In this document: one piece after another, positions 22,950 through 63,101 of the stretch
How positions within the stretch are numbered: the first letter of the stretch is position 1
Layout: each line of letters begins with the position of its first letter
Source of the DNA: an uncultured Collinsella sp.
GTDB lineage: Bacteria > Actinomycetota > Coriobacteriia > Coriobacteriales > Coriobacteriaceae
NCBI GenBank assembly: GCA_902496455.1
Contig: CABVAY010000007.1
Location: forward strand, 422-64,421
Reading direction: 5' to 3'
Length of the DNA: 64,000 nucleotides
Notes under the pieces: model-generated
What the model saw: only the letters and a program-made list of their open reading frames with translations
The model's database searches: none
Told to the model about the DNA's origin: nothing
Program-made: the position numbers and the translations under genes

Positions 22950-22988
22950 GTCAATCACTTCTTTCCTATTCAGCAGAGGCAAGCGCTG

Positions 22989-25574: not shown

Positions 25575-25575
25575 A

Positions 25576-27348: not shown

Positions 27349-27352
27349 GGTG

Positions 27353-28918: not shown

Positions 28919-28921
28919 GGC

Positions 28922-29575: not shown

Positions 29576-29585
29576 GTCCTACCTC

Positions 29586-31043: not shown

Positions 31044-31059
31044 AGTTTCTCCCTTCTCC

Positions 31060-31983: not shown

Positions 31984-32000
31984 AATATCCTCTCCCCTCT

Positions 32001-34629: not shown

Positions 34630-34707
34630 CCCCACTTCCTTTCAAAATAACGGGCCGGGCTCCCGAACGTACGGGACGCCCGGCCCAAATAGCCAACGAG
34701 AACGGGA

Positions 34708-41873: not shown

Positions 41874-41907
41874 AAACAAAAACGGGACGGGCAAAAGACC
41901 CGTCCCG
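41874..41907 (-). terminator. Intrinsic terminator ending the selD...cysteine desulfurase gene string
   Basis: Stem CGGGACGGG/CCCGTCCCG followed by UUUUUGUUU on the minus strand, 15 nt after the stop at 41922. Confidence 0.8.
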
Positions 41908-41921
41908 CAAGTATATACGCT

Positions 41922-43061
41922 CTAGCAGGCTAAATCGCGCAAAGCGTCGATCGCGGTGTCGACTTCCTCGCTCGTGTTGAAATACCCAAACGAGAAGCGA
42001 ACGACACCCTGACGCTCGGTCCCCAGCGCGCGGTGCATGAGCGGAGCGCAATGGGCGCCGGGGCGCGTCGCAATCCCCCACCCTTGCATGAGCGCGTCCG
42101 AGATCTCGGCAGAGTCGATATCGCCTACGTTGAGTGAAACGATCGCCGAGTGCACGGGCTGGTCAAACGCACCGTAGAGCGCAATGCTGGGGATTTCGCG
42201 CACGCCAGCGAGAAAGCGATCGGCCAGGGCGCGTTCGTGAGTCGCAATCGCCTCGACCCCACCCTGGGCCTCGATAAAGTCGAGACCAGCGGAAAGTCCC
42301 GCGATGCCATGACCGTTGAGCGTGCCCGCCTCAAGGCACGTGGGCCACCCAAGCGGCTGCAGCGCATCGAAGCTGTGCACGCCCGTGCCGCCCATGGCCC
42401 ACGGAGCCACGTCAATGCCCTCCGCCACGGCCAGGCCGCCGGTCCCCTGCGGACCCATGAGCCCCTTGTGACCGGTAAAGCACACGACGTCGAGCCCCAT
42501 GGCATCCATGTCAATCTTCGCCGTGCCGGCAGACTGCGAAGCATCGACGATCACCAGCGCGCCGGCCGCATGCGCGATGGCAGCCACGCGCGCAATGTCG
42601 ACCGCGTTGCCGGTCACATTGGAGGCGTGCGTCACCACCACAGCACGCGTACCGGGCGTGACAAGCCGCTCGAGCTCGTCGTAGTCGAGCACGCCGTTGG
42701 TATCACAGCCCGCATGCTCAACCGTCACACCCTGCTCTGCCGCCAGGCGGTTGAGCGGACGCAGTACGGAGTTGTGCTCGAGCACCGTTGTGACCACACG
42801 GTCGCCGGGGCGCACCACGCCATTGATGACGGTGTTGAGCGCCGCGGTGGAGTTGGGCGTAAAACAAACATGGTCAGCACGCGGGCAGCCCAGCAAGCGC
42901 GCAAGCTTGGCGCGGCAGCCGTGGATGGTACGTGCCGCATCGAGCGCACCCGAGGTGGCACCGCGCCCAGCATTGCCGAGCGAGCACATCGCCTGCGTCA
43001 CGGCATCGATGACCGTCTGCGGCTTGTGCATGGTCGTCGCCGCGTTATCCAGGTAGATCAT
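41922..43061 (-). CDS. Class V aminotransferase-fold cysteine desulfurase / selenocysteine lyase-like enzyme
   Basis: IYLDNAATT, PLP-lysine FTGHKGLMGP, active-site RPGAHCAP. ATGA overlap with the upstream DUF3343 gene; GGGAGG Shine-Dalgarno sequence. Confidence 0.85.
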   Translation of the reverse strand: MIYLDNAATTMHKPQTVIDAVTQAMCSLGNAGRGATSGALDAARTIHGCRAKLARLLGCPRADHVCFTPNSTAALNTVINGVVRPGDRVVTTVLEHNSVLRPLNRLAAEQGVTVEHAGCDTNGVLDYDELERLVTPGTRAVVVTHASNVTGNAVDIARVAAIAHAAGALVIVDASQSAGTAKIDMDAMGLDVVCFTGHKGLMGPQGTGGLAVAEGIDVAPWAMGGTGVHSFDALQPLGWPTCLEAGTLNGHGIAGLSAGLDFIEAQGGVEAIATHERALADRFLAGVREIPSIALYGAFDQPVHSAIVSLNVGDIDSAEISDALMQGWGIATRPGAHCAPLMHRALGTERQGVVRFSFGYFNTSEEVDTAIDALRDLAC

Positions 43062-43309
43062 CGCACGACCTCCCACATATTAATCACGGTATAGCCCTCA
43101 GTGGGAACGCCCGCCGCGGCGAGTTCGCCGCGCAGCAGCTCCTCATCGACAGGCAACGCCTTCCACGCCAAACCGCAGCCGGCAGCGACCTCCCCGGGAA
43201 CGGGAATCGTCCGCCCGGGAAGACCGCGCTCGATGCACAGGGACTCGCAACCCATGGCGGCCGCCGTGGTGGGAAACGTGATGACAAGCGCCGGGCGCTT
43301 CTCCCTCAT
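43058..43309 (-). CDS. DUF3343-type putative Se/S carrier-like protein
   Basis: 83 aa, LPGRTIPVPGEVAAGCGLAW core, paralogous to 14928-15323. Confidence 0.7.
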   Translation of the reverse strand: MREKRPALVITFPTTAAAMGCESLCIERGLPGRTIPVPGEVAAGCGLAWKALPVDEELLRGELAAAGVPTEGYTVINMWEVVR

Positions 43310-43328
43310 GGCAACTCCAACCAATACG

Positions 43329-43955
43329 CTACGGGCGCACGACGCGCACGGCCTGCTCCATCTTCTCCACGATCACGTACATGTTGGTGACCTCGCCCAC
43401 CGCAAGCTGGTCCTTAATGCCAAAGTGGTCCAGGCAGGTACCGCAGGTGAGAATCTCGACACCCTGCTCCGCCAAGCCCTTCAGGTCATCGAGCACCGGC
43501 GAGCCCTCGACGGTGAGCTTGGCACCGCCGTTGTAAAACAGCATAGTCGCGGGCAGCTCCTCCTGCTGCGTCACGGCAAAGATGAAGGCCTTCATGAGCT
43601 TGTGGCCCAGCTCGTCGTCGCCACGGCCCATGCAGTCGGTGTAGACGGAAATGACGAGCTTGCCCTTGCCGGCGCTGGCATCACAGAAGGCAGCGCCATC
43701 CTGCTCGGGATCGGCCACGGCAACGGCGCCAGAGGTCGCCACGGTCACGTGCCACTCGGCGTCAGAAACCTTCTCGACCAAGGCCGTGCAGCCCTTCTCC
43801 TGCGCCATCTTGGAGATGTTCTTGACGGCGGTCTCGTTATCGACCGAGGTCACGACTGTGCCCTCGCCATCGAGCTGCTTCAGGGCTTTGAGCGTCTTGA
43901 CGACGGGCAGCGGGCAGGCATCGCCCATGGCATTGACTTCAATTTTGGTAGACAT
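43329..43955 (-). CDS. yedF: YedF-like selenium-metabolism protein (TusA/SirA-like domain fused to a DsrE-like domain)
   Basis: N-terminal MGDACPLPVVKT (CPxP) motif, C-terminal TCGTCLDHFG. About 208 aa from ATG 43955. Confidence 0.75.
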   Translation of the reverse strand: MSTKIEVNAMGDACPLPVVKTLKALKQLDGEGTVVTSVDNETAVKNISKMAQEKGCTALVEKVSDAEWHVTVATSGAVAVADPEQDGAAFCDASAGKGKLVISVYTDCMGRGDDELGHKLMKAFIFAVTQQEELPATMLFYNGGAKLTVEGSPVLDDLKGLAEQGVEILTCGTCLDHFGIKDQLAVGEVTNMYVIVEKMEQAVRVVRP

Positions 43956-44014
43956 AGTTTTTCCTTTCAAAAGGGACCGCCCAGAACAGTAGGCGGTCGC
44001 ATAAACGGTTTTCC

Positions 44015-45064
44015 TTAATGCACAACGCGAACGGCAGGACCGCCCGGCACCGGCTCGCACACGCGGCCGATTGTAGCGGCAACGCGCCCCTCGGCATGTA
44101 AACGACGCGCAAGCTCATCCGCATCCGCCGCGGGCGCCGCAATAAGCAAACCGCCCGAAGTCTGCGGATCGTACAGCGCATCCAGCATGCCCGGCTCCAG
44201 GTCATCGTCGGCAGCTACACGCGGGCCAAAGAAGTCCTGGTTGCGGTAGGAGCCCGCGGGGATAATGCCCAGACGCGCCATGTCGAGCACCTGGTCAAAG
44301 AGCGGCACCGCCCCCGACGCGAGCTCGATTTGCACGCCCGAGCCCTCGGCCATCTCGCACGCATGCCCGATCAGACCAAAGCCCGTAATGTCGGTGCAGC
44401 CGTGAAGCTCAAGTCCCTCGGCCAGACGAATCGGAGCCTCGTTGAGGGTGCGCATCGAGTCAAACATGGCTGCGGCCTCGTCCTGCTCGATGAGCTCGCC
44501 CTTAATGGCCGTGGTGATAATGCCCGAGCCGATCGCCTTGGTCAGCAGCAGAACATCGCCCACGCGTGCGCCGCTGTTGGCGAGCATGCGGTCGAGCGCG
44601 ACAAAGCCGCTCACAGACAGGCCATACTTGGGCTCGTCGTCGTTGATGGTATGGCCGCCCGCGATGGAGCAACCCGCCTCGACGCACTTGTCGGCGCCGC
44701 CCGCCAGAATCTGACCGGCACCCTCGATGCCCAGACAACTGGGTATGCAGAGTAGGTTCATGGCATGGCTCGGCCGCCCGCCCATGGCGTAGATGTCCGA
44801 CAGCGAGTTGGCCGCGGCAATCTGGCCAAACAGAAACGGATCGTCGACCATCGGCGGGAAGAAGTCGATGGACTGCACAAGCCCCAGGTTCTCCCCTACG
44901 CGGAAGACGCTCGCATCGTCAGAGGTATCGAACCCCACGAGCAAGTTGTCGTTATGCACATTTGGCAAGTCGCCCAGGACCTGGGCGAGGGCTCCAGGAG
45001 CCAACTTAGCGGCTCAACCGCTCGCGGCCGTCATAGACGTGAGCCTAATCTGATCGTCAGCCAT
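44015..45064 (-). CDS. selD: Selenide, water dikinase (selenophosphate synthetase), selenocysteine-containing (UGA at 45014-45016 = codon 17)
   Basis: An AGGAGG-preceded ATG at 45064 gives MADDQIRLTSMTAASG-U-AAKLAPGAL. U17/K20 occupy the positions of E. coli SelD C17/K20. The ORF track starts only after the UGA. Confidence 0.9.
44970..45013 (-). promoter_or_regulatory. Putative SECIS region of selD
   Basis: The 8-bp stem UCGCCCAG/CUGGGCGA with a GUC loop starts 26 nt 3' of the UGA. Confidence 0.45.
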
Positions 45065-45134
45065 CGATACCTCCTCTCATCGGTCAATCATTTTCTCCCA
45101 GTATACGCATGAATGCGAGCCTGCGGCGGATGCA

Positions 45135-45899
45135 TTAATTGAGCGCCTGTGCGCGAATCGCCGCGCCAATCGCTCCGGCAAAGCGAGCCTGGGGCGAGGT
45201 GGTCACCGGCGACCCCAGCAGCTCGCCCAACCGCTCCACCACGAAGGCGTTCTCGCACAGGCCACCGGTCAGGTAGTACGGGGCGCCCGCGGCCTGCCCG
45301 GCCATGGTCGCCACGCGCGAGACCACGCTGTCGATCACGCCACGTGCAATGTTCTCGCGCGGCTCACCGCGACCGATCAGGCTGATGACCTCGCTTTCGG
45401 CAAACACCGTGCACATGCTGCTGATCTTGGTGGGCTCACCGGAACGCGCAAGGTCGGCCATCTGCTGTTGGGAAATACCCAGACGGTCGGCCATGATCTC
45501 CAAAAAGCGCCCCGTACCGGCAGCGCACTTGTCGTTCATGGCGAACTTGGCCACGCGGCCACTTTTAAGCTGAATGACCTTGGTGTCCTGGCCGCCCACG
45601 TCAATCACCGTGCCGTGATCGCCAAACAGGCGCACGGCACCGGTGCCGTGGCAGGTGATCTCGGTCACGACCTTGTGCGCATAGGGCACGGCGACACGGC
45701 CGTAGCCGGTCGCGATCACGCGCACGTCGTCGGCAGCCACGTCATAGTCGGCTGAAGCGAGCTCGCCGCGCAAGCGCTCGGCCGCATCGACCGACGAATA
45801 CCCCGTCGGCATGACGCAGGTCCACGCAATGGCGCCGTCCGTCTCCACCACTGCAGCCTTCGCGGCCGTCGAGCCTATGTCGATACCAATGCCAACCAC
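45135..45899 (-). CDS. BadF/BcrA/HgdC-type ATPase ([4Fe-4S] activase of 2-hydroxyacyl-CoA dehydratase-like enzymes)
   Basis: GIDIGSTAAKA, DVGGQDTK, cluster cysteines in NDKCAAGTGRFLE and MCTVFAESEV. GTG start 5 nt after AGGAGG. Confidence 0.88.
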   Translation of the reverse strand: MVGIGIDIGSTAAKAAVVETDGAIAWTCVMPTGYSSVDAAERLRGELASADYDVAADDVRVIATGYGRVAVPYAHKVVTEITCHGTGAVRLFGDHGTVIDVGGQDTKVIQLKSGRVAKFAMNDKCAAGTGRFLEIMADRLGISQQQMADLARSGEPTKISSMCTVFAESEVISLIGRGEPRENIARGVIDSVVSRVATMAGQAAGAPYYLTGGLCENAFVVERLGELLGSPVTTSPQARFAGAIGAAIRAQALN

Positions 45900-45949
45900 G
45901 GCATCCTCCTTCTATGCGGCAAAGCAACTATCCCTTTGCCGCATTTGTC

Positions 45950-47113
45950 CTACAGGGTTTCGATGAAGGCGGCGATGCGCGTCTCGATCTGGCCCATGTC
46001 ACCGTTGCTGTAGTCGGTCTCGATCTTCATATACGGAATACCCGCGCCCTCGACAGCCTCCTGCATGCGCGCACTCTCCACGTTAAAGGTGTGGCACGCC
46101 TGGAGCACATTCTCCACCACACCGTCGACGTGGTATTTCTCGCACATGGCCAGGGTGTTGTCCATACGACCGTCGTTGGGCGTCATGACCGAGCAGTTGA
46201 TATCCAGGTAGCGGTCGGCGATAGCACGCAGGATGTCGGGAGCCTCCGGGTCGATCATCATGGCCGCCGTGCGCTCTCCCGAGCAGTCGTCCATACACAC
46301 GACCACGCCGCCGTTGGACTCGATGGTGCGACCGATCTTGTTGATCACGCCGCCCACCGGGCAGCCGGTGATCAGAATGCGCTTGGCATCCGCCGCGACC
46401 GGGCGCTCGCCCGCGTCGTAGGCCTCGCGCAGCTTGGCAACCTTTTGCTCCAGCTGCTGCGTATAGGCCTCGATATCAAAGCTGAACGTACCGGCAAACA
46501 TGGTGCTCATCAGGTCGACGCCGCTCATGGCCGCCGGCTGGTTGGCCTGCAGCGCAAACATCTCGAGCTGGGCCGCACGCAAGCGGTTGCGACGACGGAC
46601 GGCAGCGCGAAGGTCATCGTCGGTAATCGTGATGCCGTAGAAGCCCTCGAGCTCCTCTTTGAGCAGGCGGCACTCCTCGTACCAACCTTCACGCTCGTAG
46701 GCGCGGTCGCGGCTCTGCGGAAGATGTAGGATGTGCGTGCGCTTGAGCTCGTTGAGTAGCTCGTACATCTTCTTCTTACCGTCGCAGGTGGTCTCACCGA
46801 TGATCATGTCGCTAAAGTACGTAAACGGGCACTTTTGCGAATAGGCAAAACCGTACGTCGACTTGATGAGCGGGCACAGGTTTGCTGGCAGCACCTTCTC
46901 GGCCTCGGGAATCACCTCGTCGGATGTGCCGCACAAGGCCACGCTTGCAGCGCCCGCGGCATCGATAATCTCGAGTGGCGTATAGCTGCACAAAAAGCCG
47001 ACCAGGCGATTGCCGGCCTGTTTGTAATCCTTAACGCGAATAAACGCCGCCTTGCGTTGCTCGTTGAACTCCTCAAACGTGGACGGCAACGGCTGTTCAA
47101 TATTTTCCGGCAT
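45950..47113 (-). CDS. HGD-D family protein (2-hydroxyacyl-CoA dehydratase / double-cubane-cluster-protein-like), paralogue 2
   Basis: 387 aa from ATG 47113 (AGGAG Shine-Dalgarno sequence). Motifs [27 protein letters not shown]. Colinear with 47262-48545. Confidence 0.8.
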
Positions 47114-47261
47114 ATAACTCCTAAACCTTTTAACCAACCAAGGAAACGGCTCTCCCAGGTGCCCGAGGTTGCCGTAAAAGGATCGCCGCGTACTTTGGTA
47201 CGCAAGCGACGGTTTGAACGGCAAGATCGGGTGCCTGGGGAAGCCGCCGGGACGAATAGTC

Positions 47262-48545
47262 CTAAATGGTTTCCAAGAAAGCCTCGATCCTGGTTTGCAG
47301 TTGGCCAGCATCCTCGCCGGCGTAGTCGGTCGTGATGTGCATAAACGGAATGCCGGCTTCCTCGGCGGCCTTCTCCACGGCAAAGGACTCCATCTCGTAA
47401 AGCGTGCAGAACTGCAGCGCCACGTCCACGATGCCGTCGGCATGAAGGTCGCGTGCCATCTGAACAATGTCCTTCATACGCTGGTCGTTGGGCGTAAAGA
47501 CGGCGCAGTTGATCTTAAAGTAGCGCTCGGCGATGGCGTCGAGCATCTCGTCGACCGTCTCGCCGGACTCGTCGACCAGGTCCTTGTAGTAGCGCGAGCC
47601 CGTGCAGGACTCCTCGCCCACCACGACGCCGCCGGCCTTCTCGATGAGGTTGAACAGCTTCCAGTTGGGCACGGCCATGGGCGTGCCGGTGTACAGGATG
47701 CGCTTGGTCCCCTTGGGCACCACACCCTCGCCGGCCTCGACACGCTGCTCGCACTCAGCCGCCATATCGTTGATGGCTCCGGTCAGACGCGGCGTGTCGT
47801 CCATAAAGGCGGCCTGAACGGTCAGCAGGCTGTCGAGACCGCTGATGGGCGCTGGGTCGGCAGCGCGCGTGGCAGCGAGGCGCTGCAGGGCGCGACGCTT
47901 CTCATTGACGGCGTGGATGGCGGTCTTCAGACGCTCAGGCGTAATCGTGACGCCACACTCCTTCTCAATCTTGGCGGCGAGCTTCTTGACCTCGGCCTTC
48001 CAGGTCACGAGCGTCGACTCGTCGTGCACGTTGGGAATATCCATGACGTACATGTTCTTTTGCGTGGCAAAGAACTCGTAGGCCTTCTTCTTGCCATCGC
48101 AGGTGTTCTCGCCCACCACCAGGTCGCTCGACTCGATGTAAGGGCAGACCTCACCCAGCTTAAAGCCGGCAAAGCTCTTGATGAGCGGACAGGTGTTGCG
48201 CGGCAAGTGCTCCTCGACCTTATCGGTTGCCCAATCGGCACCCGAGCACAGACCAACGGGAATGCCGTCACAGGCAAGCACGATCTCCTCGGGCACGTAC
48301 ACACAGAACGAGCCCACGATCTTGGTGGCCTCGCCAGCCTCCTTCTTGTCGAGCATCTCCTTAATACGGCCGCTGTGGATGTTGGTGGCCACAAAGTCCA
48401 GGTAGGACGTGGACTTGGGGCGATTGTTCTGCGTCAGGAACATATCGCCGTACATCTGGCCCACGGCGCCCAGCAGCATGTCGTGGTCGGCAAGATTCAT
48501 GCCGAGGCTCTCCCACATCGGATGGAAATCGAATTCTTCAGCCAT
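47262..48545 (-). CDS. HGD-D family protein (2-hydroxyacyl-CoA dehydratase / double-cubane-cluster-protein-like), paralogue 1
   Basis: 427 aa. Motifs [28 protein letters not shown]. Confidence 0.8.
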
Positions 48546-48974
48546 GACGGTTCCCCTCTCGAACCAAAAACGGATAACGGCGTTATCGATGCACGACGGA
48601 CGGCGATTGCCCGGTCGTGCTCAAACCCGGAATTTTAGGGAACCTGCCTTGCGGACGGTTATTTAGTTGTGCGTCGTCTCTCCCGGAGCCGTGAACATAC
48701 CTGCTCATATGCGGCTCCGAGCCATATACAGGGCGCGCGCGGCAACGCGGCGAATGTATGTCGTCTGCGGCATGTGCGCACCCTCCTTTACAAGATAAAG
48801 TCAACTATATCAACGGTCGTCAACCATGCGAACACCGTTGACATTCGTACGACAGCGTCGTGTGCCGTCGTATAATAAATAATTATCTTAATTGATAAGA
48901 GTTTGTCATCCCTCATTCGGCGAGCGGCAAGACAAAGCCGCCGAGGCTTATATCCCCGACGGCATTACCCGGCG

Positions 48975-50045
48975 CTATCGACAAACCAAGTGGATCCTAC
49001 TCGCATCGAAGTGCATGCGCAGCGTCTCGCCTGCTTGCGGCAGCTCGTCGACAGGCACGCCCACCTTGTTGACCTTCCACTGCAGACGCGTGGGCGCATC
49101 AGCGCGCGGCACGTCCAGCAATACCAGCCGCTCAAAGCGCGAATCGCTCACACGGGCCACATGCAAATCGTAGCTGTTACGGCCCCGCTCAACGCGATTG
49201 TCAACATGGAAATAGCTTGCGCGAACGCCCAGGTACGCCACATTATCGGGAACCGCGCGACCCACGTTAAAGGTCATGCCCCAGTCGAGGGCCTCAACTT
49301 CTTCGTCGCCGATCTTGCGCGCCCGGCTTGTATTCTTGCAGCCCGTCAGGCGCAGCGCCGCCAGCGTCTGCGGACGGCGGACCACGTCCTCGACGGAGCC
49401 GATCTCCTCAACATGCCCGTCGTGCATCACGCAGATACGCTGGCACAGGCGGCAAGCTTCGTCGATGTCGTGGCTCACGTAAAGCACGGTGCGGTTGCAC
49501 ACATCGAACAGGTCGAGCATGTTCTGCTCGAGCGCGCTCTTAAGATAGGAATCGAGCGCGCTCATGGGCTCGTCGAACATAAAGATGCCCGGATGCGCCG
49601 CCACCATGCGCGCAAGCGCCACACGTTGCTGCTGACCGCCCGAGAGGCGCGCGGGATAGCGGTCGGCAAAATCGGCTAGACCGAAAATGCTCAGATAGCG
49701 CTCGGCGAGCTTTTTGCGCGCGGCGGCGTCGCCCGCATCCTTTACACCGGCGCATACGTTATCGGCCACCGTCATGTTGGGAAACAGCTGATAGTTTTGG
49801 AACAGCAGGGCACATTTGCGCTCCTGAGGCGACAGGTTGATGCCCGCCGCCGAGTCAAAAAAGGTTACGCCGTTGACGACGATCTTGCCCTCGTCGGGCG
49901 TCTCCACACCGGCAATGCAGCGCAGCGTGCAGCTCTTGCCGCAGCCCGAGGCACCAAGCAGTGCCACACGCTCCTCGCCGGCCTCAAGCTGCATATCGAG
50001 CATAAACTCCGGATAGCGCTTTTTAATATCCAGAACGAGTGACAT
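48975..50045 (-). CDS. modC: Molybdate ABC transporter ATP-binding protein with a C-terminal TOBE-like domain
   Basis: Walker A GASGCGKS, signature LSGGQQQRVALAR, Walker B FMFDEP, plus an additional C-terminal domain of about 120 aa. Confidence 0.85.
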   Translation of the reverse strand: MSLVLDIKKRYPEFMLDMQLEAGEERVALLGASGCGKSCTLRCIAGVETPDEGKIVVNGVTFFDSAAGINLSPQERKCALLFQNYQLFPNMTVADNVCAGVKDAGDAAARKKLAERYLSIFGLADFADRYPARLSGGQQQRVALARMVAAHPGIFMFDEPMSALDSYLKSALEQNMLDLFDVCNRTVLYVSHDIDEACRLCQRICVMHDGHVEEIGSVEDVVRRPQTLAALRLTGCKNTSRARKIGDEEVEALDWGMTFNVGRAVPDNVAYLGVRASYFHVDNRVERGRNSYDLHVARVSDSRFERLVLLDVPRADAPTRLQWKVNKVGVPVDELPQAGETLRMHFDASRIHLVCR

Positions 50046-50048
50046 GGC

Positions 50049-51473
50049 CTATCGACCTCCCTGCATAGCGGGCTCATCGCGCATGAGCTCAGCCAATGCC
50101 TCGCGATCGATACGCAGCGCATCGCCGCCGACTGGGTCGAGCGAATCGCCCTGTCCGGCGAAATCTTTGGCCTGTTTGCGCTCCGCGCGGGAAAGGCCCC
50201 GCTCGCGATACTTTTGCGAGTGTGCTGTGTACATGTTGATAAACAGGATGACCAAGAAGCTGAACGCAATTACGACCACGACCCAAAAGAGGGCCACCGA
50301 CGTATTGCCGCCCATCCACTCAAAGTAGATGGCGATGGGGATGGTCTGGGTAATGCCGGCGTAGTTGCCCGCAAAGAACAGGGTGCAGCCAAACTCGCCC
50401 ATCGCGCGGGCAAAGGCAAGCACCGTACCGGAGGCAATCGAGGGCCAGCCAAGCGGCATCATAAGCTTGGTAAAGATGCGACGCTCGGACCAGCCCAGCG
50501 TGCGCGCCGCATCGAGCATCTGCGTGTCGAGGCTCTCGAAGGCTCCGAGCGCCGTACGATAGACGAGCGGGAACGACACCACCACGGCAGAGATCACCGC
50601 CGCCGGCCACGTAAAGACGATCGAGACACCGTGCGCGATCAGCCACTGGCCCACCCCGGTCGAGCGGCCAAACAGCATGAGGAGCAGAAAGCCGCAGACC
50701 GTGGGCGGCAGCACCATAGGAATCGTAAAGACCGAATCGAGCAGGCCCTTGATGCGACTCGAGGTACCCATAGTCTTCCACGCGGCGAACAAGCCCAGCT
50801 CAAAGGAGATCAGCAGGGCAAGGCCGCTCGTTTTTATGGACACCCAAAACGGTCGGTAGTCGATGCCGCCCAAAAAGGAGGCCAGAGAGGTCAAGGGGAC
50901 CTGCTTATCCCGCAACACGACAGACGATGCCTCTACCATTTGAGCGCTATCAAGCCAACGCGCGCCGCCCTTGGCATCACCCGAGGCTGATGCAATCACC
51001 ACATAGCGGTCCCCATCCGCACCGCGCTCGTCAAAGCCATAGGTATACCCGCCGGTCTCAAACGTTGTTTCCGCCGTGACATACCAAGGAAGATCCACGT
51101 CCCCTAGCTGCGCACCTCCCATGCAGTTTGCGCTGTCGAGCTCACAGACGAGGGCCTTGAGACCCGATACGCACTCGTTATCCTGTGAATCCAATCCATA
51201 CTTCTCGACCGCCTTGGGCGATATCCACACCACAACGCGATCGGCAGCGGGCGCCACCACAAGGTCCACGTCCTCGTCAACGGGAAACCGGTAGCCCTCA
51301 GGCTGGCCCTCCATGGCACGAGCGGTCCCCTTGGCCAACCGCTCAAAACCCTCGATCCCATAGGAAAGCCCATGAGCGGTCGCAGCAACCTGGGCCCCGT
51401 CCTCAGCGTCCCCGGCAAACGCAAATCCCGGCACCCAGCAAAGCGCGAAGGTCAAAGCACAGGCGACAAGCAT
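50049..51473 (-). CDS. modB: Molybdate ABC transporter permease fused to an N-terminal extracytoplasmic domain of about 200 aa
   Basis: The C-terminal half has the ModB/CysTW permease core (EAA-like DAARTLGWSERRIF). The N-terminus has a signal-like MLVACALTFALCWVPGFAFA followed by a soluble domain. The start could instead be GTG 51560. Confidence 0.8.
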   Translation of the reverse strand: MLVACALTFALCWVPGFAFAGDAEDGAQVAATAHGLSYGIEGFERLAKGTARAMEGQPEGYRFPVDEDVDLVVAPAADRVVVWISPKAVEKYGLDSQDNECVSGLKALVCELDSANCMGGAQLGDVDLPWYVTAETTFETGGYTYGFDERGADGDRYVVIASASGDAKGGARWLDSAQMVEASSVVLRDKQVPLTSLASFLGGIDYRPFWVSIKTSGLALLISFELGLFAAWKTMGTSSRIKGLLDSVFTIPMVLPPTVCGFLLLMLFGRSTGVGQWLIAHGVSIVFTWPAAVISAVVVSFPLVYRTALGAFESLDTQMLDAARTLGWSERRIFTKLMMPLGWPSIASGTVLAFARAMGEFGCTLFFAGNYAGITQTIPIAIYFEWMGGNTSVALFWVVVVIAFSFLVILFINMYTAHSQKYRERGLSRAERKQAKDFAGQGDSLDPVGGDALRIDREALAELMRDEPAMQGGR

Positions 51474-51559
51474 GCGGAATCTATTAAGCACGAAAAGCTC
51501 CAAGCGAATACAAGGACGGAGTGAAACACAAAACGATGGAATTATCGCGCCAAGCCGCA

Positions 51560-52429
51560 CTACGCGGAAAGCTCAAAGCCGTACTTAGCCCAAATCTTCT
51601 GGGCCTTTTTGTTGGTCAGACAGAAGTCGATGAACGCCTTGGCTTCGTCGGCATGCTCGGAGCTCTCGGCGACAGCGCCCGGATACACGATGGGTTTGTG
51701 CGAATCCTCGGGGCACACGAAGGCCTCCTCGATGCCATCGTAGCGGAAGATATCGGAGCTGTAGACAAAACCGGCCACGCAGTCGCCTGTGGACACATAG
51801 GCGGCGGCGGTACCAACTTTGTCGGCCAGCGCCACCTTGTCGGCAATCTCGGGCGCGTACTCGCCGTCATCGCCCTCGGTGCCGGTGTAGAGGCCCACGG
51901 AAGCCAGCGCCTGATTGGCGTACTTACCGGCGGGGACGGTCTTGGCGTCGCCGATGGCGATCTTGCCGTCCAGGTTCGCGACGTCGGCGATGGCCTCGAC
52001 GTTGGTGTCGGAGCCCTCGGCGCGAATGATCACAAGGTCGTTGACGAACATGTCCTCACGCGTGTCGGCGTCAACGAGCTCGGCGGCCTCGGCGTCGTCC
52101 ATGGTGCCCTTGGAAGCAGTGATGAGCACGTCGACGGCGGCACCGGCGCGCATCTGCTCGACAAGGTCACCGGACGCCTTAAACTGCGTGTCGGCAAAGG
52201 TGATGCCGGTCTGGCCGGTGTAGAGCTCTTGGACCTCGGGAAGGGCCTTCTCGAGGGAGTTAGCAGCGAAAACCTGCAGCTCGACAGCCTTCTTCTTAGA
52301 GGAAGACTTGGCGGAGCCGGCATCGGAACCAGCGAGCTCGGACGTCTTGTTGCCCGAGCAGCCGGCAAGGCCAAGGCCGGCGGCAGCAGAAAGCGAGACA
52401 AAACCGCGGCGTGAAACCATATCGAACAT
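51560..52429 (-). CDS. modA: Molybdate ABC transporter substrate-binding lipoprotein
   Basis: Lipobox LGLAGCSG and periplasmic-binding-protein fold. ATG 52429 lies 6 nt after AAAGGG. Confidence 0.85.
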   Translation of the reverse strand: MFDMVSRRGFVSLSAAAGLGLAGCSGNKTSELAGSDAGSAKSSSKKKAVELQVFAANSLEKALPEVQELYTGQTGITFADTQFKASGDLVEQMRAGAAVDVLITASKGTMDDAEAAELVDADTREDMFVNDLVIIRAEGSDTNVEAIADVANLDGKIAIGDAKTVPAGKYANQALASVGLYTGTEGDDGEYAPEIADKVALADKVGTAAAYVSTGDCVAGFVYSSDIFRYDGIEEAFVCPEDSHKPIVYPGAVAESSEHADEAKAFIDFCLTNKKAQKIWAKYGFELSA

Positions 52430-52525
52430 ATTCAACCCTTTCGGATCTTGTGCCCGGGTACCCCACCGCGGGCTTTAATCTGTTACTAGATTATACTTCT
52501 GCGCGAATAATGATTATGAGAAATT

Positions 52526-52541
52526 ATTCTCTCCAGAGAAT
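52526..52541. promoter_or_regulatory. Perfect 16-bp palindrome upstream of modA
   Basis: ATTCTCTCCAGAGAAT lies about 30 nt upstream of a minus-strand TATAAT box (52490-52495) in an AT-rich leader. Confidence 0.4.
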
Positions 52542-52582
52542 ATAGTTTCAAGTTACCGTGCACCTCGGTGTCGCTTCGGCGG

Positions 52583-52618
52583 AAAACAAAAGCGGAGCGA
52601 CCGATAAGGTCGCCCCGC
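52583..52618 (-). terminator. Intrinsic terminator after the MogA/MoaB-family gene
   Basis: Stem GCGGGGCGACC/GGTCGCTCCGC followed by UUUUGUUUU on the minus strand. Confidence 0.8.
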
Positions 52619-52632
52619 CGCAGGTAAACCGC

Positions 52633-53112
52633 TTAGTTGGTATGTCCGCCGCCCGCTGTCATCTGAGCCGCATGCTCCAGCTGGTCCGCTATGGCCTCCC
52701 AGCTTTCGCGGGCGGCCTTCGTAGAACCGGGAAAGTTTACGACAAGTGTATGACCTCGTTGCATGCAAATAGCACGCGAGAGCATGGCGCGGCGCGTCTT
52801 GGACATGGAGTACGCACGGATTGCCTCTGCAATACCCGGCACATCGCGGTCGCAAACGGCACGCGTCGCCTCGGGCGTCACATCACGCATCGAAAGCCCC
52901 GTGCCGCCGCAGGTGAGCACGACATTGGCGTGGCACTCATCGGCGGCTTCCACAATGGCATCACCGATCTCGCTGGCGTCGTCGCGCACGACCACATGTG
53001 AGGCAACCGTCCAGCCCTGCGCCTCGATAAGTTCCTCGAGTGCAGCACCCGCCTCGTCCTGAGCAAGATCGCGCGTATCCGAGCACGTCACGATCGAAAT
53101 CTTCAACTCCAT
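52633..53112 (-). CDS. MogA/MoaB-family molybdopterin adenylyltransferase
   Basis: 159 aa from ATG 53112 (AGGAGG Shine-Dalgarno sequence). Motifs TCGGTGLSMRDVTPEA and NFPGST. Confidence 0.8.
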   Translation of the reverse strand: MELKISIVTCSDTRDLAQDEAGAALEELIEAQGWTVASHVVVRDDASEIGDAIVEAADECHANVVLTCGGTGLSMRDVTPEATRAVCDRDVPGIAEAIRAYSMSKTRRAMLSRAICMQRGHTLVVNFPGSTKAARESWEAIADQLEHAAQMTAGGGHTN

Positions 53113-53122
53113 AGTCTTCCTC

Positions 53123-54385
53123 CTACAACACCGTTCCCTCGGGCAGGTCGACGCGCACGACATCCACGACGTCGCCCGCCTTAAGCTCGCACGGTCCTTC
53201 GTCAATACGCAACAGGCAGTTCGCGCGCTGCATAGTTCCGAGCAGCGCCGAATTCTGCGTCTTGGCCTCGGTCACCAACAGCTCACTGGTCTCGGGGTCG
53301 CGCAAAACCGTGGCGCGATCGAAGAAGCGTCGGTCCTGGCGCTTCTTCACGCCGTGCGTGAGCGTCGCCTGCTGCACGGGACGCGAACCCTCGGCAAAGC
53401 CGCGCATCTTGCGAATCGCGGGGCGGGCAAGCATCTCAAAGCCCACATACGCCGCGGCCGGATTGCCTGAAAGTCCCAGGTAGGGCTTACCCCCGAGCAA
53501 GCCAAACGTGATGGCCTTGCCCGGACGCATCGAGATGCGGTCAAACAGCACCTCGCCCTCGCGCCGGACGAGCGCCGTCACGTAGTCGTAATCGCCCGCC
53601 GAGGCGCCACCGCTCGTAATGACAAAATCGCACTCCTGCACGGCGCGATGCACAAGCTCGGCAATCGCCTGCTCATCATCGGGCGCAATGCCGTAGAACA
53701 CGGGCTCGGCACCGGCATCGAGTGCCTCAGCCATCAGCGCCGAGGAGTTGGAATCGCGAATCTGACCGCGCGCCGGTACCTTACTCGGTGCGACCAGTTC
53801 CGTGCCCAGCGAGATAATGCCCACGCGCGGGGCAGCGTGCACCTTCACGCTTGCATACCCGGCGCTTGCCAGCAGACCCGCGCCCGCCGGGGCCACAACC
53901 TCTCCAGCACGCATCACGACGTCACCGGCATGGGCCTCCTCGGCGGCAGAGCGAACATTCTCCCCTACCTTGGCAGGTGCCGAGAAGCTCACGTGCGAGC
54001 CCTCGTTGCCGTCACCGTCAAGTACCTCGACAATCTCGTATTTCACCACGGCATCCGCGCCCTCGGGCACCGGCGCGCCCGTCATGATGCGAACCGTCTC
54101 GCCCGCGCCGATTGCGTCCTCAAACACATGGCCCGCGGCCTCGTGTCCGATAACGTCGAGCGTCACTGGCGCCTCGCCAGATGCCTGCACCAAGTCCGCC
54201 GAGCGCACGGCATATCCGTCCATAGCGCTGTTGGCAAACGGCGAGATGTCGATATCGGCCACCGCGTCCTCGGCCAAGGGAAAACCAGCCGCCTGCCACA
54301 CGGGAATCTCGACGAGATCGGACGGAGCAACGTGCGACAAAACAATCGACTGCGCGTCCTCCAGCGGAATGAGTTTCTCTGCCAT
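53123..54385 (-). CDS. moeA: Molybdopterin molybdenumtransferase
   Basis: About 420 aa, four-domain MoeA layout. Motifs SPFANSAMDGYAV and TSGGASAGDYDY. Confidence 0.88.
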   Translation of the reverse strand: MAEKLIPLEDAQSIVLSHVAPSDLVEIPVWQAAGFPLAEDAVADIDISPFANSAMDGYAVRSADLVQASGEAPVTLDVIGHEAAGHVFEDAIGAGETVRIMTGAPVPEGADAVVKYEIVEVLDGDGNEGSHVSFSAPAKVGENVRSAAEEAHAGDVVMRAGEVVAPAGAGLLASAGYASVKVHAAPRVGIISLGTELVAPSKVPARGQIRDSNSSALMAEALDAGAEPVFYGIAPDDEQAIAELVHRAVQECDFVITSGGASAGDYDYVTALVRREGEVLFDRISMRPGKAITFGLLGGKPYLGLSGNPAAAYVGFEMLARPAIRKMRGFAEGSRPVQQATLTHGVKKRQDRRFFDRATVLRDPETSELLVTEAKTQNSALLGTMQRANCLLRIDEGPCELKAGDVVDVVRVDLPEGTVL

Positions 54386-54595
54386 ATGCACCTCTTAATG
54401 CCACGGCGCACAACAGGGGCGCCGATTCTTTATGCTTGTCTCAGTATAATCCCCCGATGCACGGCCGCGACTCGGTCTGTACCCGCAAATACACCTGTCG
54501 GTTGCAGGCCGCGAAACAGAATGGAAACCAACCCACCGGCTCGTCGCGTTTACCGCGTTTTATAATGCTTGCGTTGCAACCTAAAAGAGGAACGT

Positions 54596-62725: not shown

Positions 62726-62739
62726 AGCGTCAACAAAGT

Positions 62740-63101
62740 GCTGAGTGGGCCGATAAGCCGGGTTCTGTCGTGAACGGTCATTTATCTTGTCTGCACGTTA
62801 CCGTGCAGCTCCACGCACGCTACCCGAACGCGGACCGGGCCGGCCCATAGCGTTCCTATTCGCGCTTGCTCCGGATGGGGCTTGCCAAGCCGCCGTGTTG
62901 CCACGACGCTGGTGGTCTCTTACACCACCGTTTCAGCTTTTCCCTTTACGCCTTGCGGCGCAGGTGGGAGTCTTCTTTTCTGCGGCGCTTTCCGTCGGAT
63001 CACTCCGCCCGGCCGTTAGCCGGCATCCCGCCCTCTGGAGCCCGGACTTTCCTCACGCGTACTGCAAGCAGCACATCGCGCGACCGTCTGGCCCACTCAG
63101 C
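62740..63101 (-). ncRNA. rnpB: RNase P RNA, bacterial type A
   Basis: Minus-strand GAGGAAAGTCCGGGCTCC (P4 5' strand, 63037-63054) and ACAGAACCCGGCTTA (P4 3' strand, about 62752-62768). Perfect 12-bp P1 GCTGAGTGGGCC/GGCCCACTCAGC. Confidence 0.93.

What the first reader, a model, noticed from the sequence alone, without database searches (positions are those of the whole stretch)
41922..48545. HgdC-type activase and two 8-Cys HGD-D paralogues apparently share an operon with selD-yedF-DUF3343-cysteine desulfurase
Seven same-strand genes run 48545 -> 41922 with gaps of 148, 50, 70, 59, 19 and -4 nt. The only clear intrinsic terminator I can draw is after the last gene (41874-41907).

The upstream three genes form an ATP-driven electron-injection module. 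The activase carries both bridging-cluster cysteines (KCAAGTG, CTVFAESE). The two HGD-D proteins are colinear and share eight conserved Cys positions: (F/L)C, LC(G/S), CPLIKS, CP(Y/F), TCDGKKK, (S/D)C(T/S)G, INC, (F/A)C. That is more cysteines than the 3-Cys sites of classical dehydratase subunits, and it recalls double-cubane cluster proteins; this comparison is inference.

The downstream four genes are a selenium-donor and trafficking set: Sec-SelD, a TusA+DsrE YedF-like protein, DUF3343, and a SufS-like lyase.

I know of no described link between an archerase-type reductase and selenophosphate synthesis. One hypothesis is low-potential reduction of an oxidised or bound Se (or S) species to feed SelD.
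Basis: partly seen in the sequence, partly recalled or inferred. Interest (0 to 1): 0.72.

Follow-up and report, generated by a model that had tools for sequence, protein, structure and literature searches.

The report
Double-cubane reductase within selenium-donor operon
A gut Collinsella genome strings two double-cubane iron-sulfur reductases and their ATP-driven activator together with the selenium-activating enzyme SelD and three selenium/sulfur carrier proteins; the literature has noticed this link but never explained it, and it hints at what these enigmatic reductases do.

Summary
Seven minus-strand genes (48545 to 41922) have exactly the stated gaps, with one strong terminator after the last gene.

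Both HGD-D proteins are bona fide double-cubane cluster proteins (DCCP; NF040772, 491 and 496 bits against a cutoff of 350). DCCP-A is the long Carboxydothermus type. DCCP-B is the short E. coli YjiM type (47% identity). They are followed by a DCCP-R-type activase, Sec-SelD, YedF, DUF3343 and an EF2568/SclA-family cysteine desulfurase.

- Haft & Gwadz found 955 of 970 DCCPs in SelD-containing genomes.
- Lin et al. 2015 list the same gene set in Slackia.

What I add:
- Across 46 dereplicated DCCP loci, 21 carry a Se/S-trafficking partner within 6 kb: DUF3343 in 17, YedF-type in 12, the desulfurase in 7, SelD in only 2.
- One distant metagenomic locus has all seven genes in another order.
- E. 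coli K-12 ytiA, next to yjiM-yjiL, is a DUF3343.

Best reading: a conserved DCCP-carrier module, here fused to selD, that probably reduces bound selenium to selenide. The chemistry is untested.

Verdict: a new member of a known kind, moderately interesting.

The parts
48804..48909 (-). Two sigma-70-like promoter matches upstream of DCCP-A, inside a 429-nt intergenic region
   Evidence: 48909..48882, 10 of 12 positions matched; 48832..48804, 9 of 12 with extended TG. These are consensus matches only. The length of this intergenic region is conserved at 428-450 nt in 72 Collinsella loci.
47262..48545 (-). DCCP-A: long (class I) double-cubane cluster protein, 427 aa
   Evidence: NF040772 at 490.8 bits (cutoff 350), PF06050. 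Full-length 421-bit match to C. hydrogenoformans DCCP 6ENO/7YYL. Ligand Cys 81/119/149/314/347/380, plus Cys100 and Cys134.
47186..47205 (-). Weak hairpin in the 148-nt DCCP-A|DCCP-B gap
   Evidence: 8-bp stem with 4 GC pairs and a poor T-tract. The total number of terminator-like hits in the region did not exceed that in shuffled sequence. No DUF3343 remnant in the gap.
45950..47113 (-). DCCP-B: short (class II, YjiM-type) double-cubane cluster protein, 387 aa
   Evidence: NF040772 at 495.9 bits. 39% identical to DCCP-A. 47% identical over its full length to E. coli YjiM. It lacks most of the N-terminal segment of about 60 residues present in DCCP-Ch. Ligand Cys 42/80/110/277/307/340, plus Cys61 and Cys95.
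45135..45899 (-). Archerase-type ATPase (DCCP-R / HgdC-like activase), 254 aa
   Evidence: TIGR00241 at 231.5 bits, PF01869. PDB matches are MbdQ, HgdC 1HUX and DCCP-R 7YYL_E. The KCAAGTG and CTVFAESE motifs are present.
44015..45064 (-). selD, selenide water dikinase, a selenoprotein (Sec codon TGA at 45014..45016, motif SG-U-AAKL)
   Evidence: TIGR00476 at 358.7 bits with U modelled as C. The TGA is conserved in 64 Collinsella loci and aligns with Cys in the UMGS609 orthologue. selA, selB and tRNA-Sec are in the same window.
43329..43955 (-). YedF-type TusA+DsrE selenium-metabolism protein, 208 aa
   Evidence: TIGR03527 at 212.7 bits, PF01206 + PF02635.
43058..43309 (-). DUF3343 / Se_S_carrier protein, 83 aa, with the conserved P-x-P...CG motif
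   Evidence: PF11823 at 64.5 bits. The 4-nt overlap with the desulfurase start codon is invariant in 50 of 50 Collinsella loci.
41922..43061 (-). Group II cysteine desulfurase / selenocysteine-lyase-like PLP enzyme of the EF2568 family, 379 aa
   Evidence: TIGR01977 at 410.5 bits (cutoff 377). SclA model NF040779 at 352 bits (cutoff 525, not met). PF00266. The best PDB relatives are SufS, CsdA and CsdB.
41882..41908 (-). Intrinsic-terminator-like hairpin closing the cluster
   Evidence: 11-bp stem with 8 GC pairs, followed by TTTTTGTTT.

Best explanation
The seven genes form one selenium-assimilation unit of a Collinsella aerofaciens-group bacterium. It joins two pieces.

(i) A widely conserved module: double-cubane reductase(s), their ATP-hydrolysing electron injector, a DUF3343 carrier, a YedF carrier and an EF2568/SclA-type PLP lyase.

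(ii) selD.

Proposed mechanism (inferred, not shown):
1. The lyase strips Se (or S) from selenocysteine/cysteine as an enzyme-bound perselenide/persulfide.
2. It passes this to the single conserved Cys of DUF3343, and on to YedF.
3. The activase uses ATP to push a very low-potential electron into the [8Fe-9S] cluster of DCCP-A/DCCP-B.
4. DCCP then reduces the carrier-bound or otherwise oxidised selenium (Se(0), selenotrisulfide or a small Se compound) to selenide.
5. Selenide is handed to SelD to make selenophosphate for the Sec-containing formate dehydrogenase and for SelD itself.

The closed class I enzyme (DCCP-A) would suit a small-molecule substrate. The open YjiM-type class II enzyme (DCCP-B) would suit a bulkier, possibly protein-bound one.

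Shown: gene identities, synteny, and the recurrent DCCP-carrier adjacency across lineages. Inferred: co-transcription, the direction of Se flow and the substrate.
For: Identities.

Operon-like layout with a single strong terminator.

Conserved order in Collinsella. In a sister lineage (L079/L107, DCCP-A 89% identical) DCCP-A abuts selD-yedF-DUF3343-desulfurase directly, with no DCCP-B or activase between them.

A distant metagenomic locus, L163, carries all seven families on one strand in a different order: desulfurase, DUF3343, DCCP-A, DCCP-B, activase, YedF, a CysK-like PALP enzyme, then Sec-SelD. Identity to the window proteins is 43-48% for six of them and 30% for DUF3343.

Across 46 DCCP clusters (85% identity), counts within 6 kb of the DCCP gene were:
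- activase 35
- DUF3343 17
- YedF/DsrE-type 12
- TIGR01977 desulfurase 7
- SelD 2
- YedE 2
- any trafficking partner 21

For the 24 clusters with at least 3 kb on both sides, 11 have a partner.

Internal control: among 18 loci with at least 9 kb on both flanks, 7 have a partner within 3 kb and none has one at 6-9 kb.

Family checks on the neighbours: 10 of 10 small neighbour ORFs pass PF11823. 4 of 4 desulfurases pass TIGR01977, and the YedF-type neighbours match TIGR03527.

Partner-bearing loci are scattered over most clades of the DCCP tree.

E. coli K-12 has yjiM-yjiL-ytiA, and YtiA is a PF11823 protein.

Literature:
- 955 of 970 DCCPs lie in SelD genomes.
- The Slackia STRING table lists the same genes.
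- DCCP can be reduced only by its ATPase plus ATP, not by dithionite or Ti(III) citrate, so it works at very negative potential (PMC7317905).

Demand for selenium is local: selA, selB, selC and a Sec-FDH (CART-U-HGP) are in the same window.
Against: - No transcript data are available. Many Collinsella strains tolerate same-strand insertions inside the cluster: a GT4 glycosyltransferase between the activase and selD in 21 of 62, and an ABC importer cassette between the two DCCPs in 10 of 68. Tight physical coupling is therefore not essential.
- SelD itself is adjacent in only 2 of 46 DCCP clusters.
- Three Firmicute loci, including Carboxydothermus islandicus, a close relative of the prototype's source, have only DCCP plus activase, and one whole DCCP clade shows no partners.
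- Perselenide or persulfide reduction does not obviously need an ATP-driven reductant.
- DUF3343 also occurs in organisms without SelD (Lin et al.), so the chemistry may concern sulfur rather than selenium.
- The 46 clusters are the loci most similar to a consensus query, not a random sample, and many are truncated.
Confidence: 0.42

Rival explanations
1. The flow runs the other way. The desulfurase/lyase, DUF3343, YedF and possibly SelD are maturation or repair factors for DCCP. They deliver the bridging sulfide, or a selenide, to build or re-sulfurate the double-cubane cluster. This is Haft & Gwadz's 'selenium-bridged 2x[4Fe-4S]' possibility. The true DCCP substrate would then be something else.
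For: - The most frequent DCCP neighbours are a SufS-like desulfurase and a small Cys carrier translationally coupled to it. This is the classic donor/acceptor pair of Fe-S assembly.
- SelD is rarely adjacent.
- DCCP is almost confined to SelD-containing genomes, whereas most SelD genomes lack DCCP.
- The two unliganded Fe atoms are joined by one exchangeable mu2-sulfide.
Against: - DCCP from C. hydrogenoformans, made in E. coli, carried a complete [8Fe-9S] cluster and was active (PMC7317905).
- Carboxydothermus, Desulfosporosinus and Thermincola loci lack the partners.
- YedF and the EF2568 family are otherwise tied by comparative genomics to SelD-dependent selenium use, not to Fe-S assembly.
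Confidence: 0.2
2. There is no direct biochemical coupling. DCCP-A/B reduce an imported small or organic compound in an anaerobic energy or catabolic pathway that merely depends on selenoenzymes. The genes sit together because this genome region collects Se/Mo-related and anaerobically co-regulated functions.
For: - The window is a Se/Mo island: selABC, two formate dehydrogenase-type molybdoenzymes (one of them Sec-containing), an FHL-like hydrogenase, XDH-like genes, modABC and moeA.
- Different ABC importers are embedded in DCCP clusters: Nik/Opp-type in some Collinsella, SsuA/NMT1-type in Thermophilibacter.
- In an Atopobiaceae MAG, DCCP-A abuts the glycine reductase selenoprotein cluster.
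- Haft & Gwadz link DCCP to the SAO transporter locus.
- Strain-level insertions split the cluster.
Against: - Direct, same-strand adjacency of DCCP/activase with DUF3343, YedF and the desulfurase recurs in many DCCP clades with shuffled gene orders, including E. coli. Partners lie within 3 kb and never at 6-9 kb.
- L163 reunites all seven families independently.
Confidence: 0.25
3. The HGD-D pair and activase are a conventional 2-hydroxyacyl-CoA dehydratase or benzoyl-CoA-reductase-type enzyme, as older annotation says.
For: Pfam places both proteins in PF06050 and the ATPase in PF01869. Source annotations of homologues often read 'BcrC/BadD/HgdB'.
Against: - Scores against the HadB/HadC and Bcr/Bzd equivalog models are far below cutoff (at most 104 bits against cutoffs of 420-750), while NF040772 is passed.
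- The 7-Cys double-cubane motif is present instead of 3-Cys sites.
- No CoA-transferase or acyl-CoA genes appear among the annotated neighbours.
Confidence: 0.03

Closest known systems
DCCP / DCCP-R of Carboxydothermus hydrogenoformans (CHY_0487/0488; PDB 6ENO, 7YYL)
   Same: DCCP-A aligns end to end (421 bits) and keeps all six cluster ligands and Cys94. An archerase-type ATPase is encoded nearby. The system should therefore work as an ATP-driven two-component low-potential reductase.
   Different: The prototype is a single homodimeric DCCP, and the locus of a near-identical homologue (96%, C. islandicus) has no S/Se partners. Here there are two paralogues of different classes sharing one activase, embedded in a selD operon. 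The physiological substrate is unknown in both cases.
E. coli K-12 yjiM-yjiL-ytiA
   Same: DCCP-B is 47% identical to YjiM over its full length (class II, short N-terminus). In E. coli the DCCP and activase genes are also followed, with a 4-nt overlap, by a PF11823 DUF3343 gene, ytiA.
   Different: E. coli has no class I paralogue, desulfurase, YedF or selD at that locus. None of the three E. coli genes has a known function.
Slackia heliotrinireducens Shel_25300-25470 region (Lin et al. 2015, PMC5322559, Table 1)
   Same: Same class of bacteria (Coriobacteriia) and the same families: two HGD-D subunits, activase, DUF3343, Sec-lyase family, YedF, SelD, with SelA and SelB nearby.
   Different: The gene order differs and the genes are spread over about 17 loci. 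The authors listed the STRING links but did not discuss the reductase. I did not retrieve the Slackia sequence itself.
Enterococcus faecalis selD-EF2568 (SclA) selenium cluster / 'third selenium trait' (Haft & Self 2008; Zhang et al. 2008)
   Same: selD lies beside a TIGR01977-family NifS-like lyase and small carrier proteins. The window also has an XDH-like molybdenum hydroxylase.
   Different: From memory, the E. faecalis cluster has yqeB/yqeC and no DCCP. The window enzyme does not reach the SclA exception-model cutoff (352 bits against 525).
SAO locus with adjacent double-cubane genes (Haft & Gwadz 2022/2023)
   Same: DCCP plus activase lie next to selenium-related transport and carrier genes, including a DsrE-like protein. 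DCCP is confined to SelD genomes.
   Different: No SAO genes (MerB-like SaoL, Sec-containing ABC subunits) were seen here. The partners are selD, yedF, DUF3343 and the desulfurase, none of which that paper mentions as DCCP neighbours.
2-hydroxyacyl-CoA dehydratases / class I benzoyl-CoA reductases with HgdC-type activators
   Same: Same protein superfamily and the same 'archerase' principle of ATP-driven electron injection.
   Different: Those enzymes use 3-Cys [4Fe-4S] sites, CoA-ester substrates and CoA-transferase partners. All of these features were tested here and not met.

Membership tests
Double-cubane cluster protein (DCCP, NF040772) | Score at or above the curated equivalog cutoff (350 bits) | tested here: met
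   DCCP-A 490.8 bits, DCCP-B 495.9 bits.
Double-cubane cluster protein (DCCP, NF040772) | 7-Cys motif: six cluster ligands plus one non-ligand Cys (Cys94 in DCCP-Ch) | tested here: met
   DCCP-A has 81/100/119/149/314/347/380. DCCP-B has 42/61/80/110/277/307/340. These align to Ch 75/94/113/143/308/340/373, with nearly the same spacing as the prototype.
Double-cubane cluster protein (DCCP, NF040772) | Partner archerase-type ATPase encoded alongside | tested here: met
   TIGR00241 activase 50 nt downstream of DCCP-B, carrying both cluster-bridging Cys motifs.
Double-cubane cluster protein (DCCP, NF040772) | Actual [8Fe-9S] cluster and ATP-dependent reduction | not testable with these tools
   Needs anaerobic purification, spectroscopy or crystallography.
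DCCP class I versus class II (Jeoung, Martins & Dobbek 2020) | Class I: about 420 aa with N-terminal channel-closing helices. Class II (YjiM): about 388 aa without them. | tested here: met
   DCCP-A is 427 aa and aligns with DCCP-Ch from residue 3. DCCP-B is 387 aa, aligns only from Ch residue 63, and is 47% identical to YjiM. Absence of the helices is inferred from the alignment, not from a structure.
2-hydroxyacyl-CoA dehydratase / benzoyl-CoA reductase | Equivalog-level match to HadB/HadC, BcrB/C or BzdN/O | tested here: not met
   Best scores are 104 bits (HadC, cutoff 700) and 85 bits (BzdN, cutoff 454).
2-hydroxyacyl-CoA dehydratase / benzoyl-CoA reductase | CoA-transferase or ligase and acyl-CoA pathway genes nearby | tested here: not met
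   Flanking genes are a BrnQ-type transporter, tRNAs, modABC-like genes, moaB and moeA. No CoA-transferase appears among the annotated window genes. Not every ORF in the window was scanned.
Selenophosphate synthetase SelD (selenoprotein form) | TIGR00476 match, and Sec/Cys in the N-terminal Gly-rich loop | tested here: met
   358.7 bits. The TGA in SG-U-AAKL is conserved in 64 loci, aligns with Cys in L079, and is again Sec in L163.
Selenophosphate synthetase SelD (selenoprotein form) | Sec-decoding machinery present; SECIS hairpin after the UGA | tested here: inconclusive
   selA, selB and tRNA-Sec are in the window. Hairpins follow the UGA, but the fold is not better than that of shuffled sequences (z = -1.1).
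YedF (TIGR03527) | TusA domain fused to a DsrE-like domain, above the cutoff of 110 bits | tested here: met
   212.7 bits; PF01206 + PF02635.
DUF3343 / Se_S_carrier (PF11823) | Pfam gathering score, and the conserved Cys | tested here: met
   64.5 bits against 25. The CG motif is shared with 30 neighbour-encoded homologues.
Selenocysteine lyase SclA (NF040779) / EF2568 family (TIGR01977) | Model cutoffs | tested here: inconclusive
   TIGR01977 is met (410.5 against 377). The SclA exception model is not met (352 against 525). Se-versus-S specificity cannot be read from the sequence.
Single operon | One transcript from DCCP-A through the desulfurase | not testable with these tools
   Layout and terminator scans are compatible with one transcript. 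RNA data are needed.

The most novel reading that the evidence does not exclude
Double-cubane reductases are the missing ATP-driven 'selenide generators' of anaerobes. Together with DUF3343, YedF and an SclA-like lyase, they would reduce carrier-bound or elemental selenium at very negative potential and feed SelD. This would give the DCCP family, including E. coli YjiM/YjiL/YtiA, its first physiological function. A still more exotic variant not excluded here: some DCCPs carry a selenium-bridged double cubane installed by these same carriers.
Probability: 0.3. Interest if true: 0.8.

Novelty: new member of a known kind. Interest (0 to 1): 0.52.

Why it matters
DCCPs are a widespread family whose cofactor is nitrogenase-like. 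Haft & Gwadz found them in about 5% of representative genomes. They have had no known physiological substrate since the structure was solved in 2018.

How anaerobes obtain reduced selenide for SelD is also unresolved, as are the roles of YedF and DUF3343.

This Collinsella operon physically fuses both open questions in a very common human gut bacterium. The wider pattern found here is DCCP and activase travelling with DUF3343, YedF and an EF2568-type lyase across many DCCP clades. With yjiM-yjiL-ytiA as the E. coli version, the question becomes testable by ordinary genetics and anaerobic biochemistry.

If the link is real, it would also bear on microbial competition with the host for selenium.

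Tried and rejected
1. The genome-contig scan with a DCCP alignment returned only Collinsella-group loci, because GTDB over-splits this genus.
2. A YedF homologue search returned only Coriobacteriia at 64-100% identity, so no YedF-centred survey was possible.
3. To escape this bias, I put an artificial consensus DCCP first in the query alignment for the metagenome scan. That worked: hits were 58-71% identical to the consensus and GC ranged from 0.29 to 0.70.
4. I looked for a published Se(0)/HSe- potential to support the 'needs a low-potential reductant' argument and found none in the library. That argument therefore rests only on my recollection of a very negative value and is not used as evidence.
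5. The Jeoung & Dobbek 2018 paper and the Haft & Tolstoy 2025 paper are not held in the library.
6. Rfam found no riboswitch or other RNA family in or beside the cluster.
7. The SECIS fold was not significant.
8. No DUF3343 remnant lies in the intergenic gaps.
9. DUF3343 has no solved relative in the PDB. Structure prediction was skipped because only a single sequence could be submitted.
10. The GT4 gene inserted in some strains is not assignable to any specific family, selenosugar synthases included.
11. An ABC-ATPase family recurring in 11 DCCP clusters was judged uninformative, because ABC ATPases are ubiquitous.
12. The classical dehydratase reading was rejected.

Full report
**1. What is there**

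Profile searches give these identities:
- Two PF06050 proteins. Both pass the NCBIfam equivalog model NF040772, 'double-cubane-cluster-containing anaerobic reductase' (490.8 and 495.9 bits, cutoff 350).
- A TIGR00241/PF01869 archerase-type ATPase.
- SelD (TIGR00476, 358.7 bits).
- YedF (TIGR03527; TusA + DsrE domains).
- A PF11823 'Se_S_carrier' (DUF3343) protein.
- A group II cysteine desulfurase of the EF2568 family (TIGR01977, 410.5 bits against 377). It falls short of the SclA selenocysteine-lyase exception model (352 against 525).

selD is read through an in-frame TGA at 45014..45016, in the motif SG-U-AAKL. That TGA is kept in 64 Collinsella loci. It aligns with Cys in a related genome and is Sec again in a distant locus.

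The consensus scan finds:
- a strong terminator-like hairpin only after the last gene (41882..41908);
- another closing the upstream ABC operon;
- promoter-like sites upstream of the first gene.

Internal gaps hold only weak or U-tract-less hairpins. Co-transcription is plausible but not demonstrated.

**2. The reductase module**

DCCP-A (427 aa) aligns end to end with the crystallised DCCP of Carboxydothermus hydrogenoformans (6ENO/7YYL, 421 bits).

DCCP-B (387 aa) is 39% identical to DCCP-A. It matches the prototype only from residue 63 and is 47% identical over its full length to E. coli YjiM.

Jeoung, Martins & Dobbek (PMC7317905) define two classes. Class I is long and has channel-closing N-terminal helices, so it is expected to take small-molecule substrates. 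Class II is YjiM-like and short, with an open channel, so it possibly takes larger substrates. On that scheme the window encodes one enzyme of each class, sharing a single activase.

All six cluster-ligand cysteines and the seventh non-ligand Cys (Cys94 of the prototype) are conserved in both proteins. So is an eighth Cys that the prototype also has.

Scores against HadB/HadC, Bcr and Bzd equivalogs are far below cutoff. No CoA-transferase is found among the annotated neighbours. The classical dehydratase annotation can be dropped.

**3. Organism and surroundings**

The closest loci in 185,579 species genomes are all Collinsella (aerofaciens group), at 97-99% protein identity.

The window is a selenium/molybdenum island. 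It contains:
- an XDH-like molybdenum hydroxylase;
- mobA, tRNA-Sec, selB, selA, a second FDH-like molybdoenzyme and focA (15.3-23 kb);
- an FHL-like hydrogenase cluster whose formate dehydrogenase is a selenoprotein (CART-U-HGP, TGA at 36511..36513);
- modABC-like genes, moaB and moeA directly upstream of the cluster.

There is therefore local demand for selenophosphate.

**4. Is the link to selenium new?**

No.
- Haft & Gwadz built NF040772 and reported that 955 of 970 DCCPs scoring above 400 bits lie in SelD-containing assemblies. They proposed either a role in processing selenium compounds or a selenium-bridged cluster.
- Table 1 of Lin et al. 2015 lists, for Slackia heliotrinireducens (also Coriobacteriia), the 'CoA-substrate-specific enzyme activase' and '2-hydroxyglutaryl-CoA dehydratase subunits' among the top STRING partners of YedE, YedF and DUF3343. 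SelD, SelA and SelB lie nearby. The authors did not discuss this.
- A preprint on mlp gene clusters calls DCCP 'provisionally linked to selenium metabolism'.

No paper in the library reports biochemistry for this link. Haft & Gwadz do not mention a desulfurase or DUF3343 next to DCCP.

**5. How general is the adjacency?**

Within Collinsella the seven-gene order is constant wherever contigs are long enough.

Outside the genus the content persists while the order changes:
- L079/L107 (DCCP-A 89% identical): DCCP-A is followed directly by selD-yedF-DUF3343-desulfurase.
- Thermophilibacter immobilis: yedE-tusA-DUF3343-[fragment]-DCCP-A-DCCP-B-ABC importer-activase, then C_GCAxxG_C_C, SLAC1/TehA and glycine reductase.
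- An Atopobiaceae MAG: DCCP-A lies beside the glycine reductase selenoprotein cluster.
- A Coriobacteriia MAG: DCCP-activase-DUF3343-DsrE, where the DsrE protein corresponds to the YedF C-domain alone.
- Carboxydothermus, Desulfosporosinus and Thermincola: only DCCP plus activase.

To sample more widely, I scanned the metagenome collection with an alignment headed by an artificial consensus DCCP. I annotated the 80 loci with tblastn and iterated HMMs.

After dereplication at 85% identity there are 46 DCCP clusters. Counts within 6 kb of the DCCP gene:

| Neighbour | Clusters (of 46) |
|---|---|
| activase | 35 |
| DUF3343 | 17 |
| YedF/DsrE-type | 12 |
| TusA domain | 11 |
| desulfurase | 7 |
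| SelD | 2 |
| YedE | 2 |
| any trafficking partner | 21 |

Among the 24 clusters with at least 3 kb on both sides, 11 have a partner.

Checks on these calls:
- Pfam confirmed PF11823 for 10 of 10 small neighbour ORFs.
- NCBIfam confirmed TIGR01977 for 4 of 4 desulfurases and TIGR03527 for the YedF-type neighbours.
- As an internal control, in 18 loci with at least 9 kb on each flank, 7 have a partner within 3 kb and none has one at 6-9 kb.
- Partner-bearing loci are spread over most clades of a DCCP tree. One clade, and the Carboxydothermus-like clade, have none.

A frequent low-GC arrangement is desulfurase-DCCP-DUF3343-activase.

The best independent replicate is L163, where identity to the window proteins is 43-48% for six of the seven and 30% for DUF3343. 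Its order is desulfurase-DUF3343-DCCP-A-DCCP-B-activase-YedF-CysK-like PALP enzyme-Sec-SelD, all on one strand.

E. coli K-12 also fits. The 85-aa gene ytiA overlaps the end of yjiL by 4 nt, and YtiA is a PF11823 protein (48.9 bits against a cutoff of 25). I found no paper connecting ytiA to yjiLM.

Caveats: the 46 clusters are the loci most similar to a consensus, not a random sample. Many contigs are truncated, so the counts are lower bounds. Their taxonomy is unknown.

**6. Interpretation**

The conserved unit is DCCP plus activase plus DUF3343, often with YedF and an EF2568-type lyase. In Collinsella and a few other lineages, selD has been recruited into it.

My preferred reading (confidence about 0.4) is a selenium-mobilising relay. 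The lyase makes an enzyme perselenide or persulfide. DUF3343 and YedF carry it; the DUF3343 gene overlaps the lyase start codon by 4 nt in 50 of 50 genomes. The ATP-energised double-cubane enzyme reduces the bound or otherwise oxidised selenium to selenide for SelD.

Supporting this: DCCP can be reduced only by its ATPase plus ATP, not by dithionite or Ti(III) citrate. A CysK-like enzyme, which would also consume sulfide or selenide, sits between yedF and selD in L163.

The main rivals:
- (a) The carriers mature or repair the double-cubane cluster, possibly inserting selenium (0.2). This is favoured by the SufS/SufE-like pairing and by the rarity of selD adjacency. It is disfavoured by the active [8Fe-9S] enzyme obtained from E. 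coli and by partner-less loci.
- (b) There is no direct coupling, and DCCP acts on an imported compound in a selenoenzyme-dependent pathway (0.25). This is favoured by embedded ABC importers, by neighbourhoods with grd or SAO genes, and by same-strand insertions that split the cluster in many Collinsella strains. Those insertions are a GT4 glycosyltransferase between the activase and selD in 21 of 62 strains, and a Nik/Opp-type ABC cassette between the two DCCPs in 10 of 68.

Whether the element handled is selenium or sulfur cannot be decided from sequence. DUF3343 also occurs without SelD.

**7. Verdict**

The claimed absence of a described link is wrong, and the mechanistic hypothesis is plausible but untested.

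The locus is a particularly compact member of an association already in the literature. The added value is twofold: the tight partners of DCCP are DUF3343, YedF and the EF2568-type lyase across many DCCP clades, and E. coli has a three-gene version. This makes the open question of DCCP function experimentally approachable.

Interest is moderate (0.52). Novelty: a new member of a known kind.

Noticed in passing
L168 (E. coli K-12 NC_000913.3) 7669..7926 (-), record 4563668..4563925: ytiA (b4715, 'uncharacterized protein YtiA', 85 aa) overlaps the end of yjiL by 4 nt and is a PF11823 DUF3343/Se_S_carrier protein (48.9 bits against 25). E. coli therefore has a DCCP (yjiM)-activase (yjiL)-DUF3343 triad. 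No paper in the library links them.
   Followed up: partly
window 36511..36513 (-), within the FDH gene about 34708..36930 (-): The formate dehydrogenase of an FHL-like cluster (24759..36930) continues upstream of its listed ORF through an in-frame TGA in the classic CART-U-HGP motif. It is a second selenoprotein in the window. The cluster also holds a NiFe-hydrogenase large subunit (25576..27348) and three antiporter-like subunits.
   Followed up: partly
window 15339..22982 (-): mobA, tRNA-Sec (16126..16222; ARAGORN and Rfam RF01852), selB, selA, a second molybdopterin FDH-like gene (19870..22053) and focA form a Sec-decoding and formate cluster 22 kb from selD.
   Followed up: partly
window 9371..13085 (-): An XDH / aldehyde-oxidase-type molybdenum hydroxylase (Fer2_2, hammerhead and MoCoBD domains) plus a FAD-binding subunit. 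It could be a selenium-dependent molybdenum hydroxylase. I did not look for yqeB or yqeC.
   Followed up: no
window 48975..54391 (-): Directly upstream of the cluster lie an ABC importer with a ModA-like (SBP_bac_11) binding protein, then moaB/mog-like and moeA genes. This is molybdate or tungstate uptake and cofactor synthesis. It is syntenic with the DCCP-selD cluster in Collinsella loci.
   Followed up: partly
L100 13590..14765 (+); the same site in 21 of 62 Collinsella loci; corresponds to window gap 45065..45134: About one third of Collinsella genomes carry a 1.22-kb insertion between the activase and selD. It encodes a same-strand GT4 glycosyltransferase that matches no specific family. 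Lin et al.'s STRING table also lists a glycosyltransferase next to YedE in Slackia.
   Followed up: partly
L091 11445..16722 (+); the same site in 10 of 68 Collinsella loci; corresponds to window gap 47114..47261: A 5.5-kb same-strand Nik/Opp/Gsi-type ABC importer cassette (family-5 binding protein, two permeases, two ATPases) is inserted between DCCP-A and DCCP-B in some strains. Thermophilibacter has an SsuA/NMT1-type importer between DCCP-B and the activase (L085).
   Followed up: partly
L163 256..7749 (+): A metagenomic contig (GC 0.61) carries desulfurase-DUF3343-DCCP-A-DCCP-B-activase-YedF-PALP (CysK-like)-SelD (Sec, G-U-AAK). The extra cysteine-synthase-like gene suggests that the cluster handles sulfide- or selenide-level species.
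   Followed up: partly
L115 about 8090..8645 (+) and L141 2367..2912 (+): DUF3343 is fused to a C-terminal domain of about 100 aa with a GGGCPD(V/I)PYL motif and further cysteines. The domain has no Pfam match. It sits next to YedE/TusA or YedF and DCCP.
   Followed up: no
L085 16243..17720 (+) and L086 8198..9698 (+): A C_GCAxxG_C_C protein and a SLAC1/TehA-type anion channel recur beside DCCP genes in two Atopobiaceae. Both neighbourhoods adjoin glycine reductase genes. A 2026 review lists a C_GCAxxG_C_C form as a selenoprotein family (PMC13188914).
   Followed up: no
window 45915..45943 (-): A perfect 10-bp inverted repeat (GCGGCAAAG...CTTTGCCGC) without a U-tract fills the DCCP-B|activase gap. 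This gap varies from 50 to about 155 nt among Collinsella strains.
   Followed up: no
E. coli literature (PMC9068703): A table of genes changed in a ygfI (LysR-type regulator) deletion lists yjiM and yjiL as down-regulated together with hyc/hyp formate-hydrogenlyase genes. This hints at co-regulation with a selenoprotein pathway.
   Followed up: no
window 62738..63099 (-): Bacterial RNase P RNA class A (Rfam RF00010, 284 bits).
   Followed up: no
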